Positions 22,006 through 27,697 of a stretch of 64,000 nt of DNA are shown here, in pieces. This stretch comes from a virus (lineage: Duplodnaviria; Heunggongvirae; Uroviricota; Caudoviricetes). The position numbers were made by a program, and so were the translations under genes. The notes beneath the pieces are model-generated. The model was not told where the DNA came from. It ran no database searches and was given only the letters and a program-made list of their open reading frames with translations. The stretch lies in IMG/VR virus record IMGVR_UViG_2713896898_000005. One strand, given 5' to 3'. Numbering within the stretch: position 1 is the first letter of the stretch; each line of letters begins with the position of its first letter.

Positions 22006-23007
22006 TTAAGGCTTCGGCTTTTTATCGAGGCTCTTTCTAAGGATATGCCCAATCATCCTGTCAAGTTCTTCCTGTAACTCTTTGGAGAGACGATTAAACT
22101 CATAGGAAAAGGTACGGCCTTTCACACGCTTCCTTGCGAAACGATCTTTATCCTCAAATTTCCATAATTCAGTAACTACAGACTTATCTTTAGAGCCTTT
22201 ATCCGTGAGTAACGAGGCTTCCTTTGTTATCAGGCGAAGGATTTTATTTTTCACTTCATCTTCGGCCATTTCTTCAATGGATAAGATGTCGTTTATTTCC
22301 TGGGATATGTTTTGAATAAGCTGATCAAACTCTAAATCCTTATTCCCCATTTCATCGCCAACAGCGCAAAGCGTTTTGTAGTCCGAAAAGGTTAATTCCG
22401 ACTGCACAGGGAAAAGAGCGACTAATTCTTCCGGAGCGCTCGCAGCCTGAAGAGCACGCGTGACCTTCGCCTGAGATAGCCCTTCTTTAGCGGCAATATC
22501 CTTCTGACTCATTCCATCATTTTTCATTCGCATCAAACGCAGACCTATTTCTCGAATGCTGTGCTGCAATGCTGTCTGAACGTCTTTCGCTAAATTTTGC
22601 GCTTCCTGAACGCTGATCTCCTGGTCCGTGACTAAAACCCGCAACCCTACGTTCTCTAAGATGGCAGAAGCTCGACGCCGGGAACCATCCAAAATTTCAA
22701 TTTTCCCTGTAGCCCGTCTAACACCTATTGCAGGGTAAAATTGCTGATGTTTAATGGTGCTTCTGATGCTTTTTAATGATTTTGGTGTAAGAGCTGCCTG
22801 ATCACGTCCGTTGTTATGCTGATCAACAAAGGTATCATCTTCTACCCGGTTCGGAGGGATTACCTCCTCAATGAATGTGGCCTGGCGACCTGTTGATAAC
22901 TTGAATACCTGCTCAACCCGATCACCAGAGGCAGAGGAACTATCAAATGCGCTTAATACTGAAGGATTAAGGGTTCGCCCAATTGTTGGTCTGTTTTTCT
23001 TTGACAT
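22006..23007 (-). CDS. parB: ParB partition protein
   Basis: 333-aa ORF, near-identical to remembered P1 ParB (MSKKNRPTIGRTLNPS...). Confidence 0.95.
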   Translation of the reverse strand: MSKKNRPTIGRTLNPSVLSAFDSSSASGDRVEQVFKLSTGRQATFIEEVIPPNRVEDDTFVDQHNNGRDQAALTPKSLKSIRSTIKHQQFYPAIGVRRATGKIEILDGSRRRASAILENVGLRVLVTDQEISVQEAQNLAKDVQTALQHSIREIGLRLMRMKNDGMSQKDIAAKEGLSQAKVTRALQAASAPEELVALFPVQSELTFSDYKTLCAVGDEMGNKDLEFDQLIQNISQEINDILSIEEMAEDEVKNKILRLITKEASLLTDKGSKDKSVVTELWKFEDKDRFARKRVKGRTFSYEFNRLSKELQEELDRMIGHILRKSLDKKPKP

Positions 23008-23023
23008 GGCGTTTTCTTACTCC

Positions 23024-24220
23024 TTAGTTAGATCTGATAAATTCAATACGGTCAAAAACTGCTTTTGCAAAATCTTCAGCGGCGATACGCGCGTTCTTCA
23101 GTGCGTCAGCACTACCAACATACGTTGCCGGATTAGCAGAAATAACAGTGTCAAAGGACTCGCCGCAGCGTTCGAAACCATCAAGGCGAGGGAGGACGAC
23201 ATCGAGCATATCCCCACCGAAAACTTCTTTCGCCAGGCTATGGCAATACTTATGGTCTGCCTTGTTACTCAACTTGGACATAAAACCAATGTTAGTCGCA
23301 AGCTGGCACTCGCAGCCTTCATCCGAAATGAGTTTCACCAACTCAGGAAGGCGGGCAACGTATTTAAGCGATGAGTGGAAATCGACCGTTGCTGGTGGCA
23401 GAGGTGTAAACAGTATATTGGCCGAGGCCAAAGCATTTTTCAGGAAGGCGTCAAGGTGAGGACCACTATCAACGAGGATAAAATCATAATCGCTCTTCAG
23501 CTTATCAATCACATTTTCTTTCAGGACAGCATGGATGTTCTGACCCGGTAGATGCTCATTGCACAGCTCTCTCCAATCGGATGCAATAAAGGCATCGTCA
23601 ATCGACGCAGGCATAACGTCAACCCCAGGTACAACAGAAGGAACAATAAACTCCTCTAACAGCTCTTCACGGCTTACATTCTGCAACATAGCCTGTGCAG
23701 ATGTTGCGTTTACGATACCAATAGAGTGTTTATGGCTTAAAAACATCGTTGCTGAAGATTGCGGATCAAGGTCAATAACCAGAATCCTTAAATCTTCCAT
23801 CAGAAGATGAGGGTGGGCACGCATTGCATGCGCCAGAGAAACCGTCGATACAGTTTTTGACACACCGCCTTTAAGATTGGAGATGAAAATAACATACGCT
23901 TCGCTGTAGCGATCCCGGTATTTTGGCACTCCGCGATGTTCATATATATCAATGATGTTCTGAATTGACATCGCATATTTCATTGAAGAGCCAGCAGGGC
24001 GTTTATCGAAAACATAACCCTTTTCTTCCATTTCACTTACGGCATAGTCAACGTTCGCTCGAGTCAGTAGAGGCAATTTTGCCAGTGCCGCTTTCGCATA
24101 GACCTGGTAAAACTCGTTCGCGTGTAGCTCATCCTTTTGCAACTGTACTTGTTCAGTCAGAACATTGAGCATTCTGTTTGCTCTTTGAGCAACCTTGTGA
24201 AGCTGGCTGGAATCACTCAT
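23024..24220 (-). CDS. parA: ParA partition ATPase
   Basis: 398-aa ORF; deviant Walker A KGGVSKT; P1 ParA length. Confidence 0.95.
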   Translation of the reverse strand: MSDSSQLHKVAQRANRMLNVLTEQVQLQKDELHANEFYQVYAKAALAKLPLLTRANVDYAVSEMEEKGYVFDKRPAGSSMKYAMSIQNIIDIYEHRGVPKYRDRYSEAYVIFISNLKGGVSKTVSTVSLAHAMRAHPHLLMEDLRILVIDLDPQSSATMFLSHKHSIGIVNATSAQAMLQNVSREELLEEFIVPSVVPGVDVMPASIDDAFIASDWRELCNEHLPGQNIHAVLKENVIDKLKSDYDFILVDSGPHLDAFLKNALASANILFTPLPPATVDFHSSLKYVARLPELVKLISDEGCECQLATNIGFMSKLSNKADHKYCHSLAKEVFGGDMLDVVLPRLDGFERCGESFDTVISANPATYVGSADALKNARIAAEDFAKAVFDRIEFIRSN

Positions 24221-24360
24221 CGAAAGTCATCCTTTATGCTGTATTTTTGAATTTAATTAAAAATGCTACATAAAATAATAATGTATGCGCAGATGCTTGT
24301 ACATAGCATTCTCTGCATGTTTGGTTCATTTTGCACGATTGAGCGTTGCAAGGAGGGCAC

Positions 24361-24381
24361 AAAAAAGCCCCGTTCAGGGGC
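24361..24381 (-). terminator. Rho-independent terminator after the T5orf172-like gene
   Basis: Minus strand GCCCCTGAACGGGGC followed by TTTTTT. Confidence 0.6.
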
Positions 24382-24388
24382 ATCAGTG

Positions 24389-25198
24389 TTATTTGCTAAG
24401 AGCAGCGAATAATCGTTCGAAATCGATAGTATCTATAGCACGCGTAAGCGCCGGAAGTTCAGCCTCAAAGTACCCGTGTCGATCGTAAAAGAAGGGACCG
24501 AAGAGCGAGGCATGTTGGATTCTACTTCGCCCCAGCCCGGACACACAGTTAAGCCCATTACCGGTTAAAAGGCTAAAAAACTTCTCTGGATTATCGTGGT
24601 AAAGCTGGGAATCAATGGTGGCGGTTAACTCTTCCATAGGGAAGCACACCCGCCCTGTCTCCCAGGGATATTTAGTCCGAAGCATAAACATTGCTTTCAG
24701 CAATTCACATTGAGCGCGGATCGCGTCCGGGTCATAGCCAGATATGGAGACATAAGCCACGTCCCTCATTCCTGCGTCATCTTTGAAAGTCACGATAGAA
24801 GTAACATCCAGTTCTTTTTCGAAAGAGCGAGCAGCATCTACTGGACGCTGAAGTAAATCATTCGACTTAATGAGCTCGAGAATCCCTCCCCACATATCAT
24901 TTAGATATTCGATATGAGCCAAAACCTTATCAAGACACTCTCGTGTAAACCATTCAGTATACCCGCCACCGGCGCTTTTCTCCCACGGCGCATTCCAGGG
25001 GAAAAAGGTTGCGTGTAAAGCCCGCTCAAGATTAACCATTGCCAAACGCGTACCACGATAGATTCGTGAAAGCGCAATATCGGGACTCACTTGTAGCCCT
25101 TTAAACCGTGCCAATGGACCACATGAAATGCCGATTTTAAAAGTATCTCCGTTCTCCGGCACCAGAATGTAGAGGTAGTGTTGTTTCTCTTCTTGCAT
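24389..25198 (-). CDS. T5orf172 (GIY-YIG-like) domain protein
   Basis: 269-aa ORF; N-terminal YLYILVPENGDTFKIGIS...RFKGLQ...GGYTEWF pattern typical of T5orf172/GIY-YIG-like domains; about 170-aa C-terminal region of unknown type. Confidence 0.6.
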   Translation of the reverse strand: MQEEKQHYLYILVPENGDTFKIGISCGPLARFKGLQVSPDIALSRIYRGTRLAMVNLERALHATFFPWNAPWEKSAGGGYTEWFTRECLDKVLAHIEYLNDMWGGILELIKSNDLLQRPVDAARSFEKELDVTSIVTFKDDAGMRDVAYVSISGYDPDAIRAQCELLKAMFMLRTKYPWETGRVCFPMEELTATIDSQLYHDNPEKFFSLLTGNGLNCVSGLGRSRIQHASLFGPFFYDRHGYFEAELPALTRAIDTIDFERLFAALSK

Positions 25199-25229
25199 AT
25201 CAATACCACTGCTTGATGAGAACCGCGCA

Positions 25230-25490
25230 AATGTTGACTATGCGCGAAGGTTAATGTGAATAGTTGACTATGCGCGATATGACCACAGTCAAAAGTTGAC
25301 TGTAGTCGATTTAACTCCACCAAAGATCGACTATGTAAGATATTGTCGGGAGAAACGTTGACTATACGCGATGAAATGACCCTAAAAGCCATCTCAATAG
25401 CGACTTGCAGAATATTGACGCCAGCAAAAATCCACCAGCGTCAACGAATGTCGCCTATAGTCAACTTCTCGCTATCGCATATAGTCAATA
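25230..25490. repeat. incA: incA-like iteron array (about 8 copies, two orientations)
   Basis: Repeats of TTGACTAT(G/A)CGCGA(T) in one orientation and CGC(C/A)TATAGTCAA in the other, immediately downstream of the repA stop. Confidence 0.75.
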
Positions 25491-26411
25491 TTATGGATTG
25501 CGCTTATGGATCTGGAAGCCGATTTTCCTGCCGTTTTTTATCTCTGAAAATTTAAGATATTCAATAGCTTCCAAATCTTTCATGGCTTTTCTGATAACGC
25601 TATTTTGCACGCTAACGGATGATTTGAGGTTAAGCCTTGCTCTAAGGCGCTCAATGCTGACAGGTGCTGGGTTGGCAGGTAGAGCCTCAAAGAATGTATA
25701 CAGTACCTTGGCCGTCTCTTTGCGCCCGAGCTTATCCAGCATCTTCAGCTTCAGGATTCGCTTATAGTCAACATAGTAAAGTTCAGATAGCTGTTTCTGC
25801 GGCTGGATCTCGATAACATCAAGCTCGGTATTCAGGCTGCTATATGCCAACAAGTTGACGTTAATGTTATTGAGATGACCTTTTGCCGCCGGGAAGCGGA
25901 ATTTGACAACTGTCTGCTGAATGCGTGTCAGAGAGTCATCAATACTTTTACGGAACGCCTTTGAAAGGCGCTTACGTGGATAGCCGCATCGATCGGCAAA
26001 CTCGGAGAATGGCAGGGTAATTATACCGTCATCATCAGGTGCATAGTCAAACAACGCGGAGGTTATGCCCACCCACACCTTAAAATCAGTATCCATATCC
26101 AGGCGTGGACCATGAATTTCAATTCCCTCATAGCCTTCCTGCTCAACAATTTTGAGGCTTGATAGTTCTTCGGTTGCGTTCGTTGTGTTTGTAGTAACTG
26201 ACGATCCGCGACGTAGTGCCACATTGGTAGATTTTAAGGTTGGCACAAACACACCTAAGCGCAACAAAGCGATGGGTTGTATAGTGCTGTTGTTATTGGG
26301 TTTCAGGCTGTGGATTTCTCCTGTATTTCCTGCAACTTCTTCAACGCTAAGGAAGCCTTTACTTTCTTCCGGCATCGTGGTTTCTCCATGTGTGGCGCGG
26401 CCTGACGTCAA
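25491..26411 (-). CDS. repA: RepA plasmid replication initiator (P1 RepA family, divergent)
   Basis: ORF flanked by iteron arrays; blocks shared with P1 RepA (QPIALLRLGVFVP, GPRLDMDTDFKVW); true start probably an internal Met. Confidence 0.85.
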   Translation of the reverse strand: MTSGRATHGETTMPEESKGFLSVEEVAGNTGEIHSLKPNNNSTIQPIALLRLGVFVPTLKSTNVALRRGSSVTTNTTNATEELSSLKIVEQEGYEGIEIHGPRLDMDTDFKVWVGITSALFDYAPDDDGIITLPFSEFADRCGYPRKRLSKAFRKSIDDSLTRIQQTVVKFRFPAAKGHLNNINVNLLAYSSLNTELDVIEIQPQKQLSELYYVDYKRILKLKMLDKLGRKETAKVLYTFFEALPANPAPVSIERLRARLNLKSSVSVQNSVIRKAMKDLEAIEYLKFSEIKNGRKIGFQIHKRNP

Positions 26412-26454: not shown

Positions 26455-26557
26455 AATCGCGTACAGTCAATGTTTATATCGCGTATAGTCAACATAAAAT
26501 CGCGTGTAGTCAACAATAAATCGTGTACAGTCAACATAAAATCGCATATAGTCAATG
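26455..26557. repeat. incC: incC-like iterons (5 direct repeats, about 21-bp period) with repA promoter
   Basis: ATCGCGTA(C/T)AGTCAA(C/T)(A/G) x5. Confidence 0.8.
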
Positions 26558-26700
26558 TTGATCACGTTTCAGGCCAGACATGGCGCGGCCTGCAGCGATC
26601 CGGGATCTTATTTGGATCTTCTAGGGTTCTCTTTTGGATCTGTTTATTGGATCTATGCTGTGGATAAGTTGAATAAACCGGCCAACAAAGCCGGTTGGAA
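26558..26700. promoter_or_regulatory. oriR: oriR plasmid replication origin
   Basis: Cluster of GATC (Dam) sites at about 7-14-bp spacing, DnaA box TGTGGATAA, adjacent to incC iterons. Confidence 0.7.
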
Positions 26701-27114: not shown

Positions 27115-27441
27115 TTAGTTACCGCTGATAGCGCGGTTGTAATCATTAACGTTGCGATTCTTCCTGTTAATCCCCATCAGCATCGTTTCTGTATCAAGGA
27201 TATAGGCTGGCAGATCATCAAAATATTCACTGCTAAACTCTGGCATCCTGCACATAAATGCACTTTTGGGGGCAGGGTGATTAACCTTTGTCGGCGTTAA
27301 ATTCGCTGATCGACTCCCGGAGCAACCGCTGAGTGTCAACAGGAATGCGCTGGCGAACATTACCCGCCGCAACAAGTTGTTTCTGAACTTCAGCTTTTCG
27401 TTCCATTTGCCTGTCAGCATACTTGGCTTGTTCTGATTCAT
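27115..27441 (-). CDS. Putative o-spanin lipoprotein, overlapping the i-spanin gene
   Basis: Lipobox LLTLSGC after an internal Met; Pro-rich mature part; out-of-frame overlap with the upstream coiled-coil gene (Rz/Rz1-like architecture). Confidence 0.5.
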   Translation of the reverse strand: MNQNKPSMLTGKWNEKLKFRNNLLRRVMFASAFLLTLSGCSGSRSANLTPTKVNHPAPKSAFMCRMPEFSSEYFDDLPAYILDTETMLMGINRKNRNVNDYNRAISGN

Positions 27442-27697
27442 TTTTCACTTCCTGGCTGTGAAAATGTTGCTCTGCTTTGTTCATCGTCTCAATGGTCTGG
27501 TTAAGATCCATTATTGACTTATCACGTTCCTTAACAGCCTGATCAAGACTGCCAATTTTCTCCATGGCTTGCTTTAGCTGATGACGTTCCCATGCAAACC
27601 CAGCACCAACGAGTGCGCAAATCAGGACAAGAACACCAGTAACAGCAAGTTTCTCCTTCAAAGACAAAGCTGTTTTTAACGTTGAAAAAAACGACAT
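27281..27697 (-). CDS. Putative i-spanin (N-terminal TM helix plus periplasmic coiled coil)
   Basis: 138-aa ORF; TM segment VTGVLVLICALVGAGFAW; charged coiled-coil remainder; AGGAGG RBS. Confidence 0.55.
   Translation of the reverse strand: MSFFSTLKTALSLKEKLAVTGVLVLICALVGAGFAWERHQLKQAMEKIGSLDQAVKERDKSIMDLNQTIETMNKAEQHFHSQEVKNESEQAKYADRQMERKAEVQKQLVAAGNVRQRIPVDTQRLLRESISEFNADKG

What the first reader, a model, noticed from the sequence alone, without database searches (positions are those of the whole stretch)
24361..25198. T5orf172/GIY-YIG-like gene with its own terminator inserted between incA and the par operon
In classical P1 the par operon promoter follows the incA iterons directly (established organisation, from memory). 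Here an 810-bp ORF sits between the last incA iteron and the parA promoter and is followed by a clean rho-independent terminator. It encodes an N-terminal T5orf172-type GIY-YIG-like domain (YLYILV...KIGIS...GGYTEWF) plus an uncharacterised roughly 170-aa C-terminal domain. Such domains occur in nucleases and in many phage-defence and homing proteins; a position inside the maintenance core guarantees co-inheritance with the plasmid.
Basis: partly seen in the sequence, partly recalled or inferred. Interest (0 to 1): 0.6.

Follow-up and report, generated by a model that had tools for sequence, protein, structure and literature searches.

The report
Rep-linked T5orf172 nuclease gene in P1-like plasmids
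The gene is real and common, but it is not a stray insertion: it is the last gene of a swappable replication cassette in P1-like phage-plasmids and most likely encodes a homing-type DNA-cutting enzyme with a targeting domain that resembles a plasmid replication initiator, which could help explain why these plasmids switch replicon type so often.

Summary
An 810-bp ORF (24389-25198, minus strand, 269 aa) with a clean intrinsic terminator lies between the last incA-type iteron and Ppar/parA.

The gene is not inserted into a P1 replicon. It is the last element of a roughly 2.25-kb replaceable cassette (iterons, p0111-type repA, iterons, ORF, terminator). This cassette replaces the classical IncY cassette between fixed joints.

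Diverged positional orthologues (44%, about 28% and about 31% identity) occupy the same slot in three other P1-like cassette types. One of these has an IncY-like RepA. Classical P1 has an unrelated spacer there.

The gene is carried by 412 of 5,426 complete E. coli genomes. About 16% of sampled copies are disrupted. Constraint is weak (piN/piS 0.31, against 0.02 for repA).

The N-terminal domain is a T5orf172/GIY-YIG nuclease with the family's invariant residues intact. The modelled C-terminal domain resembles the WH1 domain of iteron-plasmid initiators. Relatives in unrelated metagenomic elements sit directly after Rep_3 genes, and some carry genuine Rep_3 domains.

Best reading: a homing-endonuclease-like, Rep-mimicking nuclease, analogous to phage ICP1 Odn. 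It is a new variant of a known kind, and its function is untested.

The parts
26456..26559 (-). Five oriR (incC-type) iterons at 21-22 bp spacing. This is the left end of the replaceable rep cassette. Homology to classical P1 stops at about 26565.
   Evidence: Repeat family D1/D2. In the alignment to P1 oriR, identity through upfA, the DnaA box and the GATC region is lost exactly at the iterons.
25491..26375 (-). repA of the p0111 type (Rep_3 family). It is 294 aa from the ATG at 26375. An upstream TTG at 26411 would give 306 aa.
   Evidence: Pfam Rep3_C 27.1 bits (above the 21.1 cut-off) and Rep3_N 21.8 bits (just below the 22.4 cut-off). 42% identical to P1 RepA and 84% to the RepA of L003. 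RefSeq annotates an 885-bp repA in RCS47.
25229..25492 (-). incA-type iteron array downstream of repA. At least six copies in two orientations. The first overlaps the repA stop codon. The last ends 31 bp before the ORF start codon.
   Evidence: Repeat families D1, D4 and D5. Sequence read directly.
24389..25198 (-). The 269-aa ORF: a T5orf172-class nuclease gene (RefSeq name 'GIY-YIG nuclease family protein'; PHROG 2876).
24869..25180 (-). N-terminal catalytic domain, residues 7-110, T5orf172/GIY-YIG fold. Family-invariant residues: Y10, K21, G23, R31, S44, E58, L61, H62, E82, W83, F84.
24392..24817 (-). C-terminal domain, residues 128-269, a putative winged-helix DNA-targeting domain with a Rep WH1-like fold. 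A low-confidence linker (residues 114-127) joins it to the N-terminal domain.
24358..24381 (-). Intrinsic terminator of the ORF: GCCCC-TGAAC-GGGGC followed by T6.
   Evidence: An analogous terminator follows the L080 orthologue and a hairpin follows the L003 orthologue.
24315..24325 (.). Right joint of the cassette. Near-identity to classical P1 resumes here, about 16 bp upstream of the Ppar -35.
   Evidence: Alignment to P1. Megablast matches to P1 begin at query positions 1179-1182. The same joint is seen between L003 and L079.
24275..24303 (-). Ppar (TGTACA, 17-nt spacer, TATTAT), identical to the P1 par promoter.
   Evidence: compared with the P1 annotation.
22006..24220 (-). parA (24220..23024) and parB (23007..22006) of the P1 type. 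These belong to the flanking backbone, not to the cassette.
   Evidence: 100% and 98% protein identity to P1 ParA and ParB. Pfam.

Best explanation
**What it is.** The ORF encodes a two-domain, sequence-directed DNA endonuclease of the free-standing homing-endonuclease type. The N-terminal domain is a T5orf172 (GIY-YIG superfamily) catalytic domain. A flexible linker joins it to a C-terminal winged-helix targeting domain that resembles the WH1 domain of iteron-plasmid Rep initiators.

**Where it sits.** The gene is physically tied to the right edge of the exchangeable iteron-repA-iteron cassette of P1-like phage-plasmids. It is not needed for replication or partition.

**Proposed mechanism (inferred, not shown).**
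- The protein binds iteron-like DNA in a related replicon that lacks the gene or carries another cassette type, for example an IncY P1. It then cuts nearby.
- Either the rival element is destroyed, or the break is repaired by recombination using the ORF-bearing element as template.
- The two cassette types share no homology internally. Repair must therefore resolve in the conserved flanks (the oriR GATC region on the left, Ppar/parA on the right). This would copy the whole rep cassette together with the nuclease gene.
- The element's own cassette would be immune, because its iterons and the adjacent sequence differ.

**Shown here:** the domain architecture, the synteny, the cassette joints, the presence/absence polymorphism, the decay and relaxed constraint, and the existence of relatives that carry genuine Rep_3 domains next to Rep_3 genes.

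**Inferred:** nuclease activity, the target, and homing or exclusion.
For: **1. Nuclease domain.**
- Pfam T5orf172 matches in all four orthologues.
- The family-invariant residues Y10, K21, G23, R31, E58, H62 and E82-W83-F84 are kept across 17 diverse relatives.
- None of the 37 codons that vary at the amino-acid level in the population falls on these residues.
- In Odn, nuclease activity depends on the Glu that its authors aligned with the catalytic Glu of I-TevI (PMC8263062). I take E82 here to be the equivalent residue, but I did not align the two proteins.

**2. Targeting domain.**
- Members of the same N-domain subfamily carry genuine Rep_3 domains. P0056 has Rep3_N at 31.4 bits and Rep3_C at 39.3 bits, both above Pfam cut-offs. 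P0015 has Rep3_N.
- P0012 carries a MarR-like winged helix instead.

**3. Linkage to Rep genes in two unrelated groups of elements.**
- In four P1-like cassette types the gene follows repA and its iterons.
- In five metagenomic loci (L083, L084, L088, L131, L132) a T5orf172 gene lies immediately downstream of a Rep_3 gene.
- In L083 the Rep-like part of the nuclease is 47% identical in protein to the neighbouring Rep, and 72-85% identical in DNA over two stretches.

**4. Position at a boundary of genetic exchange.**
- The same left and right joints separate the window from P1 and L003 from L079. The flanks of L003 and L079 are 94-99% identical.
- IncY cassettes also break exactly at the end of incA when paired with a P7-type par.
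- Published work infers 17 IncY/p0111 switches on a tree of 193 Salmonella phage-plasmids (PMC11165635).
- T5orf172 genes at exchange boundaries next to essential genes are the signature described by Barth et al. 2023 (PMC10448857).

**5. Homing-endonuclease-like population signature.**
- Presence/absence polymorphism at one intergenic site.
- Eleven of about 69 sampled copies are disrupted by at least six independent events: nonsense mutations, a frameshift, an IS200/IS605 insertion and a truncation.
- piN/piS is 0.31, against 0.02 for repA, 0.05 for parB and 0.09 for gp23.
- Between the window and L003 the ORF is 44% identical while RepA is 84% identical.
Against: - **The C-terminal domain has no sequence similarity to any Rep protein**. 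However, the thin profiles used could not link two genuine Rep_3 families either, so this negative result carries little weight.
- **The C-terminal domain is only about 32% identical between the window and L003**. Their RepA proteins (84%) and iterons are almost the same. This argues against constrained recognition of the element's own iterons.
- **The gene is present in essentially every p0111 cassette** (404 against 402 plasmids). Most copies are intact and piN/piS is below 1. Some benefit to the element, or continuing homing, is therefore needed. Pure selfish decay is not enough.
- **No convincing promoter and only a weak ribosome-binding site precede the start codon**. Expression is unknown.
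- **No 'empty' site that is homologous on both sides can be defined.** The spacer in P1 is unrelated to the orthologue's flanks.
- **There is no experimental result for this protein.**
Confidence: 0.5

Rival explanations
1. Anti-phage or anti-plasmid defence cargo. The nuclease would be activated by infection (abortive infection or direct degradation of incoming DNA). It would sit in the maintenance core only because that position guarantees inheritance.
For: Nuclease domain with intact catalytic motifs. Own terminator, as in a self-contained accessory gene. Fast evolution and variable presence, as in conflict genes. P1-like elements carry many defence systems (bioRxiv 10.1101/2025.09.12.675607).
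Against: No match to any PADLOC model. It is a single gene with no sensor-like domain. Its strict positional linkage to Rep genes in two unrelated groups of elements is not expected of generic defence cargo, which tends to sit in variable hotspots. About 16% of copies are disrupted.
Confidence: 0.15
2. A domesticated accessory factor of the replicon. Examples: a Rep-like iteron-binding protein that modulates copy number or handcuffing, a repressor like the T5orf172-derived CapR, or an enzyme that nicks its own origin.
For: It co-diverges with RepA type and always lies directly after the iterons or the rep gene. In L083 the Rep-like part is 72-85% identical in DNA to the neighbouring rep over two stretches, so it may recognise the same iterons. 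No promoter of its own is visible, so it may be read through from the autoregulated repA promoter. There is precedent for domesticated T5orf172 proteins (PMC10448857).
Against: Natural knock-outs persist in otherwise intact plasmids. Constraint is more than ten times weaker than on repA. IncY replicons work without such a gene. The catalytic residues are retained, which a pure DNA binder would not need.
Confidence: 0.15
3. A decaying passenger with no present function. It would be the relic of an ancient homing-endonuclease invasion, carried along only by tight linkage to repA.
For: 16% of copies are disrupted. piN/piS is the highest among neighbouring genes with many sampled copies. The ribosome-binding site is weak and no promoter is visible.
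Against: piN/piS of 0.31 is well below 1. The ORF has stayed open, with all motif residues kept, in four lineages down to about 28-31% identity. 84% of sampled copies are intact.
Confidence: 0.12
4. A recent insertion of a mobile T5orf172 gene into an otherwise P1-type replicon, between incA and Ppar.
For: Classical P1 lacks the gene at this site. For the IncY-like pair L079 and P1, the difference is confined to the incA-Ppar interval.
Against: RepA and the iterons next to the gene are of a different specificity type (42% identity). All sampled p0111 cassettes have the gene. Diverged orthologues occupy the slot in three other cassette types, with a pattern of relatedness that roughly matches that of RepA. 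GC content is the same as the rest of the window.
Confidence: 0.05

Closest known systems
Odn (gp88) of vibriophage ICP1, the origin-directed nuclease (Barth et al. 2021, eLife, PMC8263062). Also the related T5orf172/RepA_N proteins gp5 and those of coliphages Inny, Muut and Mt1B1_P17 (PMC10448857).
   Same: A T5orf172 nuclease domain joined to a DNA-binding module of replication-initiator type. Odn cuts at the iterons of a replicon, and sensitivity follows replicon type. The modelled N-terminal domain here matches ICP1 ORF88 in BFVD. Relatives of the gene studied here carry genuine initiator domains copied from a nearby rep gene.
   Different: In Odn the initiator module is of the RepA_N family, lies at the N-terminus, and is 42% identical to its target's RepA. 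Here the module is C-terminal and Rep_3/WH1-like only at fold level. Odn is encoded by a lytic phage and aimed at a satellite. This gene sits inside the replicon cassette of a phage-plasmid, directly after its own repA and iterons. Its target is unknown.
[quoted passage not shown] By architecture, also the GIY-YIG homing endonucleases I-TevI and the Seg proteins of T4 (from my own knowledge).
   Same: Nuclease domain at one end and a DNA-binding domain at the other. The gene lies beside an essential gene, at the edge of a block that is exchanged between relatives. Presence is variable, with frequent frameshifts and stop codons.
   Different: Those genes are in lytic phages and flank structural or replication genes. 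Here the linked cargo is a plasmid-prophage replicon and incompatibility cassette. The DNA-binding domain is not one of the zinc-finger, CapR, AP2 or helix-turn-helix modules described there. Homing has not been shown for this gene, and Barth et al. state that it has not been experimentally verified for the ICP1 genes either.
IncY versus p0111 replicon types of P1-like phage-plasmids (PMC9603915, PMC11165635).
   Same: This window carries the p0111 type. [quoted passage not shown] Frequent switching between the two types is documented.
   Different: Those papers use the replicon only as a typing marker. They do not discuss the extra gene's domains, its orthologues in other cassette types, or a possible role in switching.

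Membership tests
T5orf172 domain family (Pfam PF10544, GIY-YIG clan) | Match to the family profile above the curated threshold | tested here: met
   21.2 bits against a cut-off of 20 for the window protein. All four orthologues match, best E = 3.2e-6. PHROG 681 'endonuclease' matches at 6.5e-9.
T5orf172 domain family (Pfam PF10544, GIY-YIG clan) | Conserved core motif residues: Tyr in strand 1, K-I-G in strand 2, Arg, and the Glu of the T-E-W-F motif | tested here: met
   Y10, K21, G23, R31, E58, H62 and E82-W83-F84 are invariant in 17 diverse relatives and in the four orthologues.
T5orf172 domain family (Pfam PF10544, GIY-YIG clan) | GIY-YIG alpha/beta fold | tested here: met
T5orf172 domain family (Pfam PF10544, GIY-YIG clan) | Metal-dependent endonuclease activity | not testable with these tools
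   Needs purified protein and an E82A control.
Free-standing homing endonuclease genes | Nuclease domain plus a separate DNA-binding domain joined by a linker | tested here: inconclusive
   The two-domain model has a disordered linker at residues 114-127. The C-terminal domain is winged-helix-like only by fold search. No DNA-binding family matches by sequence.
Free-standing homing endonuclease genes | Presence/absence polymorphism at one intergenic site between otherwise homologous genomes, next to a conserved or essential gene | tested here: met
   Present after repA and incA in p0111-type and three other cassette types. Absent from IncY P1 and P7-type plasmids.
Free-standing homing endonuclease genes | Signs of decay cycles: frameshifts, stop codons, relaxed constraint | tested here: met
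   Eleven of about 69 copies are disrupted. piN/piS is 0.31 against 0.02-0.09 for repA, parB and gp23. A split fusion gene is seen in L132.
Free-standing homing endonuclease genes | Cleavage of the allele that lacks the gene, followed by copying of the gene into it (homing) | not testable with these tools
   Needs mixed-infection or co-residence crosses and in vitro cleavage mapping.
Odn-type origin-directed nucleases | DNA-binding domain homologous to a replication initiator's DNA-binding domain | tested here: inconclusive
Odn-type origin-directed nucleases | RepA_N-family domain at the N-terminus with T5orf172 at the C-terminus; encoded by a lytic phage and aimed at a satellite | tested here: not met
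   The domain order is reversed (T5orf172 at residues 8-85). There is no RepA_N match. The gene lies in the plasmid-maintenance cassette of a temperate phage-plasmid. It is therefore an analogue of Odn, not a member of that family.
Odn-type origin-directed nucleases | Iteron-dependent cleavage of a replication origin | not testable with these tools
   Needs nuclease assays on origin fragments with and without iterons.
Known anti-phage defence systems (PADLOC-DB 2.0) | Match to a model of a known or candidate defence protein | tested here: not met
   No families matched at E up to 1.
Essential P1 plasmid-maintenance functions (rep, inc, par) | Required for stable plasmid maintenance and conserved under strong constraint | tested here: not met
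   Nonsense, frameshift and IS-disrupted alleles occur in otherwise intact elements. IncY replicons lack the gene. Constraint is far weaker than on repA and parB.

The most novel reading that the evidence does not exclude
A previously unrecognised class of 'Rep-mimicking' nucleases is hard-wired directly downstream of Rep_3 initiator genes. Each uses a targeting domain derived from an initiator to cut rival iteron replicons. In P1-like phage-plasmids this would act as a replicon-cassette drive: cutting an IncY-type element forces repair from the p0111-type element, which copies the nuclease gene together with its repA and iterons. This would be the mechanism behind the frequent IncY/p0111 replicon switching, and a new, active form of plasmid incompatibility.
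Probability: 0.3. Interest if true: 0.8.

Novelty: new variant of a known kind. Interest (0 to 1): 0.6.

Why it matters
P1-like phage-plasmids are common carriers of resistance and virulence genes. This gene is present in 412 of 5,426 complete E. coli genomes, yet no function has been assigned to it.

Replicon type (IncY or p0111) is used for typing and decides which elements can coexist. Published phylogenies show that it switches often, with no mechanism proposed.

A nuclease gene that always travels at the edge of the switching cassette, and whose relatives borrow their targeting domain from the neighbouring initiator, gives a concrete hypothesis that simple experiments can test. Replicon replacement and incompatibility may be enforced actively by DNA cutting, not only passively by iteron titration.

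It would also extend the 'origin-directed nuclease' idea, so far known from a lytic phage fighting its satellite, to competition between plasmids.

Tried and rejected
- **Direct sequence similarity between the ORF's C-terminal domain and RepA, ParA, ParB or the Upf proteins of five elements.** BLASTP found nothing.
- **Profile-profile comparison of the C-terminal domain with P1-family RepA and with the metagenomic Rep_3 modules.** Nothing was found. The control comparison between the two genuine Rep_3 alignments also failed, so these negatives carry no weight.
- **Profile searches of the whole protein and of the C-terminal domain against PDB sequences.** Only noise.
- **NCBIfam and PADLOC.** No useful match.
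- **A remnant of the ORF in the spacer of classical P1.** None was found by tblastn or blastn. A 56-codon open frame in that spacer matches only other IncY P1 plasmids.
- **More distant homologues.** The genome and IMG/VR scans found only close P1-like copies, apart from one weak Flavobacteriaceae hit that I did not pursue; the metagenome scan found only close P1-like copies. The P0009-type orthologue is absent from PLSDB and from the phage collection.
- **First structure model from three sequences.** Too poor to use (pLDDT 58.7).
- **AFDB fold libraries.** Not available.
- **An own sigma-70 promoter for the ORF.** None was found in the 31 bp after the last iteron, nor by the scan.
- **Compositional foreignness.** Rejected: the ORF is 47.2% GC and the window is 47.1%.
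- **More distant family members P0163 and P0166.** They lie in integrase-bearing elements with no recognisable Rep neighbour. The Rep linkage therefore holds for the closer subfamily only.
Full report
**The observation.** The window holds an 810-bp ORF at 24389..25198 on the minus strand (269 aa, ATG start). A canonical intrinsic terminator follows it: GCCCC-TGAAC-GGGGC plus T6 at 24381..24358, folding at -11.9 kcal/mol with z = -2.5. Read on the minus strand, the order is:
- five 21-bp oriR iterons (26456-26559);
- repA (26375/26411..25491);
- an incA-like iteron array (25492..25229), whose first copy overlaps the repA stop and whose last copy ends 31 bp before the ORF start;
- the ORF and its terminator;
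- the par promoter (24303..24275), then parA and parB.

Pfam T5orf172 matches residues 8-85 at 21.2 bits, against a cut-off of 20.

**Origin of the window and what is already known.** The segment is 100% identical to Escherichia albertii plasmid NZ_CP117651.1, a 99-kb P1-like phage-plasmid.
- The repA-plus-ORF module occurs at 95-99% identity in 404 PLSDB plasmids, and the protein in 402.
- It also occurs in 12 deposited phage records, including RCS47, SJ46, JL22 and phi456.
- It is present in 412 of 5,426 complete E. coli genomes.
- RefSeq calls it 'GIY-YIG nuclease family protein'. It forms PHROG 2876, of unknown function.

The gene and the swap are therefore known. The function is not, and I found no paper that discusses it.

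**It is a cassette element, not an insertion.** The RepA beside the gene is only 42% identical to P1 RepA, and the iterons differ (TTGACTATNCGCGAT type against GATGTGTGCTGGAGGGA type).
- Near-identity to classical P1 runs through upfA, the DnaA box and the GATC-rich part of oriR. It stops exactly at the first iteron, at about 26565.
- It resumes about 16 bp upstream of the Ppar -35, at about 24320.
- The roughly 2.25 kb between these joints (iterons, repA, iterons, ORF, terminator) is a replacement unit.
- Classical P1 has about 190 bp of unrelated spacer where the ORF lies, with no trace of the ORF.
- IncY cassettes paired with a P7-type par also lack any gene there, and they break from P1 exactly at the end of incA.

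**The slot is old and conserved.** A full-library HMMER search found only three further full-length relatives. All three sit in the same place in diverged P1-like elements.

| Source (locus) | Protein | RepA relationship | ORF identity to the window ORF |
|---|---|---|---|
| ERR2144811 (L003) | P0004 | 84% to the window RepA | 44% |
| Salmonella enterica GCA_007478465.1 (L078/L079) | P0009 | 83% to classical P1 RepA (IncY-like) | about 28% |
| Faeces metagenome (L080) | P0011 | A third type, 43-48% to the others; P7-like par | about 31%, and 40% to P0009 |

- L003 and L079 share flanks that are 94-99% identical. They differ in the same cassette, between the same two joints.
- For the IncY-like pair, L079 and P1 align from oriR to the last incA iteron and again from Ppar onward. 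Between those points, about 1 kb containing the ORF in L079 faces about 210 bp in P1.
- The relatedness of the ORFs roughly follows that of the RepA proteins, but the ORF diverges much faster.

The simplest history is an ancestral repA-iteron-ORF cassette that diversified, with the gene lost in the classical IncY lineage.

**Population behaviour.** I examined about 69 loci of the p0111 type fetched from metagenomes and IMG/VR.
- 60 ORFs are intact and 9 carry nonsense or frameshift mutations.
- One ORF is interrupted by an IS200/IS605 TnpB element and one is truncated.
- This amounts to at least six independent inactivations.
- repA has 31 DNA alleles but only 6 protein variants. The ORF has 37 DNA alleles and 31 protein variants.
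- piN/piS is 0.31 for the ORF, against 0.02 for repA, 0.05 for parB, 0.09 for gp23 and 0.16 for upfA.
- None of the varying residues is one of the family-invariant residues.

The gene is therefore dispensable for plasmid maintenance and weakly constrained, but it is not free of selection.

**The protein.** A five-sequence AlphaFold model (mean pLDDT 73) shows two domains, residues 7-110 and 128-269, joined by a low-confidence linker.
- *Catalytic residues.* Y10, K21, G23, R31, E58, H62 and E82-W83-F84 are invariant across 17 diverse relatives. In ICP1 Odn, activity depends on the Glu that its authors aligned with the catalytic Glu of I-TevI. I take E82 to be the equivalent, without having aligned the two proteins.
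- *C-terminal domain.* It has no sequence match to any family. Its element order (helix, strand, helix, helix, strand, strand) is that of a winged helix.

These scores are modest. The tool does not say which residues were aligned. I treat the Rep-like fold as a lead, not a result.

**Independent support from relatives.** I searched with an alignment of the N-domain subfamily.
- P0056 (430 aa) carries T5orf172 plus Rep3_N (31.4 bits) and Rep3_C (39.3 bits). P0015 carries T5orf172 plus Rep3_N. All are above Pfam cut-offs.
- P0056 lies 20 bp downstream of a Rep_3 initiator gene in a 59-kb phage-like contig (L083).
- Its Rep part is 47% identical in protein to that neighbour, and 72-85% identical in DNA over two stretches.
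- In four further loci of that group a T5orf172 gene again directly follows a Rep_3 gene:
  - L084: the T5orf172 gene overlaps the end of the rep gene.
  - L088: the upstream gene is a fragment of a Rep C-terminus.
  - L132: the T5orf172-Rep3 fusion is split into two ORFs.
  - L131: Rep_3, then T5orf172, then a second gene containing Rep3_C.

  These rest.
- Within that group the C-terminal part ranges from plainly Rep-derived (P0056) to unrecognisable (P0036, P0155). The latter is the state of the P1-like ORF.
- P0012 carries a MarR-like winged helix instead.
- More distant members (P0163, P0166) lie in integrase-bearing elements with no recognisable Rep neighbour.

**Interpretation.** The closest described systems are two:
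- the T5orf172 homing-endonuclease-like genes of ICP1 and other phages, which 'occupy boundaries of genetic exchange' next to essential genes and show variable presence and frequent decay (PMC10448857);
- ICP1 Odn, a T5orf172 nuclease fused to a RepA_N domain that mimics a satellite's initiator and cuts its origin at the iterons (PMC8263062).

The gene here shares the nuclease class, the two-domain logic, the position at an exchange boundary and the decay signature. It differs in domain order and in the type of initiator-like domain. It also differs in location: it sits inside a plasmid replicon cassette, directly after its own rep gene.

I therefore file it as a member of the T5orf172 family. 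I file it as homing-endonuclease-like by genomic signature, and as an analogue of Odn but not a member of that family.

The mechanism I consider most likely (confidence about 0.5) runs as follows. The protein binds iteron-like DNA in a related replicon that lacks the gene or has another cassette type, and cuts it. Either the rival is lost, or repair from the ORF-bearing element copies the whole cassette, because homology exists only in the flanks. This fits the frequent IncY/p0111 switching inferred from phylogeny, with 17 changes among 193 Salmonella phage-plasmids (PMC11165635).

**Weak points.**
- Activity, target and homing are all inferred.
- The Rep-like fold is weakly supported.
- The C-terminal domain is only about 32% identical between the window and L003, although their RepA and iterons are nearly the same. 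This speaks against constrained recognition of the element's own iterons.
- No promoter of its own is visible and the ribosome-binding site is weak, so expression may depend on read-through from repA.
- The gene is present in all p0111 cassettes, so no empty p0111 allele exists for it to invade.

**Rivals.** The alternatives, with rough confidence, are:
- defence cargo (0.15);
- a domesticated replicon accessory or regulator (0.15);
- a functionless passenger (0.12);

**Verdict.** The feature is real, very common and already annotated, and the replicon swap is published. Three things are new here:
- the gene is a conserved, fast-evolving terminal element of the rep cassette in all non-classical P1-like replicon types;
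- its subfamily is repeatedly linked to Rep_3 initiator genes, and some members carry domains copied from them;
- this suggests a nuclease-driven mechanism for replicon competition or replacement.

It is a new variant of a known kind. Interest is 0.6.

Noticed in passing
window 25757-25775: An iteron-like sequence (TTCGCTTATAGTCAACATA, 79% to the reference iteron) lies inside the repA coding region. It could be chance or an internal RepA binding site.
   Followed up: no
window 26375 vs 26411: The mechanical ORF for repA starts at a TTG (306 aa). RefSeq annotates the RCS47 homologue as 885 bp (294 aa), which corresponds to the ATG at 26375. The true start is unsettled.
   Followed up: partly
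L002 4826 (end of P1 incA); PLSDB hits: IncY repA and incA pair with two different par operons (P1 type and P7 type), and the break lies exactly at the last incA iteron. The incA/Ppar junction is therefore a general recombination joint, independent of the ORF.
   Followed up: partly
L074 8294-9504: In one IMG/VR P1-like contig the ORF is cut after about 294 bp by an IS200/IS605-family element encoding a TnpB (OrfB_IS605 plus the Cas12f1-like TNB domain).
   Followed up: yes
L003 8001-8123: The deposited gene call for orthologue P0004 has a 41-residue N-terminal extension. This is a translation of the iteron array ('AYSQH' repeats). The real start is the Met that aligns with M1 of the window protein.
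   Followed up: yes
L083 6617-6734 and 6810-6826; 7259-7612 vs 8952-9302: This metagenomic element has four direct iterons (core AACATTTATAATCTGAC, at about 32-bp spacing) upstream of its Rep_3 gene, and an inverted copy over the rep start codon. Two stretches of rep are 72-85% identical in DNA to the 3' part of the downstream T5orf172 gene, which suggests recent duplication or gene conversion.
   Followed up: partly
L132 4464-5326: A T5orf172-Rep3 fusion gene appears split into two overlapping ORFs (152 aa carrying T5orf172, and 148 aa carrying Rep3_C). This is probably a frameshifted copy.
   Followed up: partly
window 24389-25198 compared with its neighbours: Synonymous diversity of the ORF (piS 0.022) is lower than that of the adjacent repA (0.044), parB (0.032), gp23 (0.051) and upfA (0.077) in the same set of loci. 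This could be noise or could reflect a more recent spread of the ORF sequence.
   Followed up: no
NZ_AP027538.1 31339-31596 (E. coli, 231-kb plasmid): Only the last 258 bp of the ORF, plus the terminator, survive in a large non-P1-sized plasmid. This is a remnant of a p0111 cassette.
   Followed up: no
window 27115-27697: The ppfA- and mlp-like ORFs overlap in different frames, as annotated in P1. The window's ppfA and upfB differ in length from most related loci, because few ungapped full-length copies were found.
   Followed up: no
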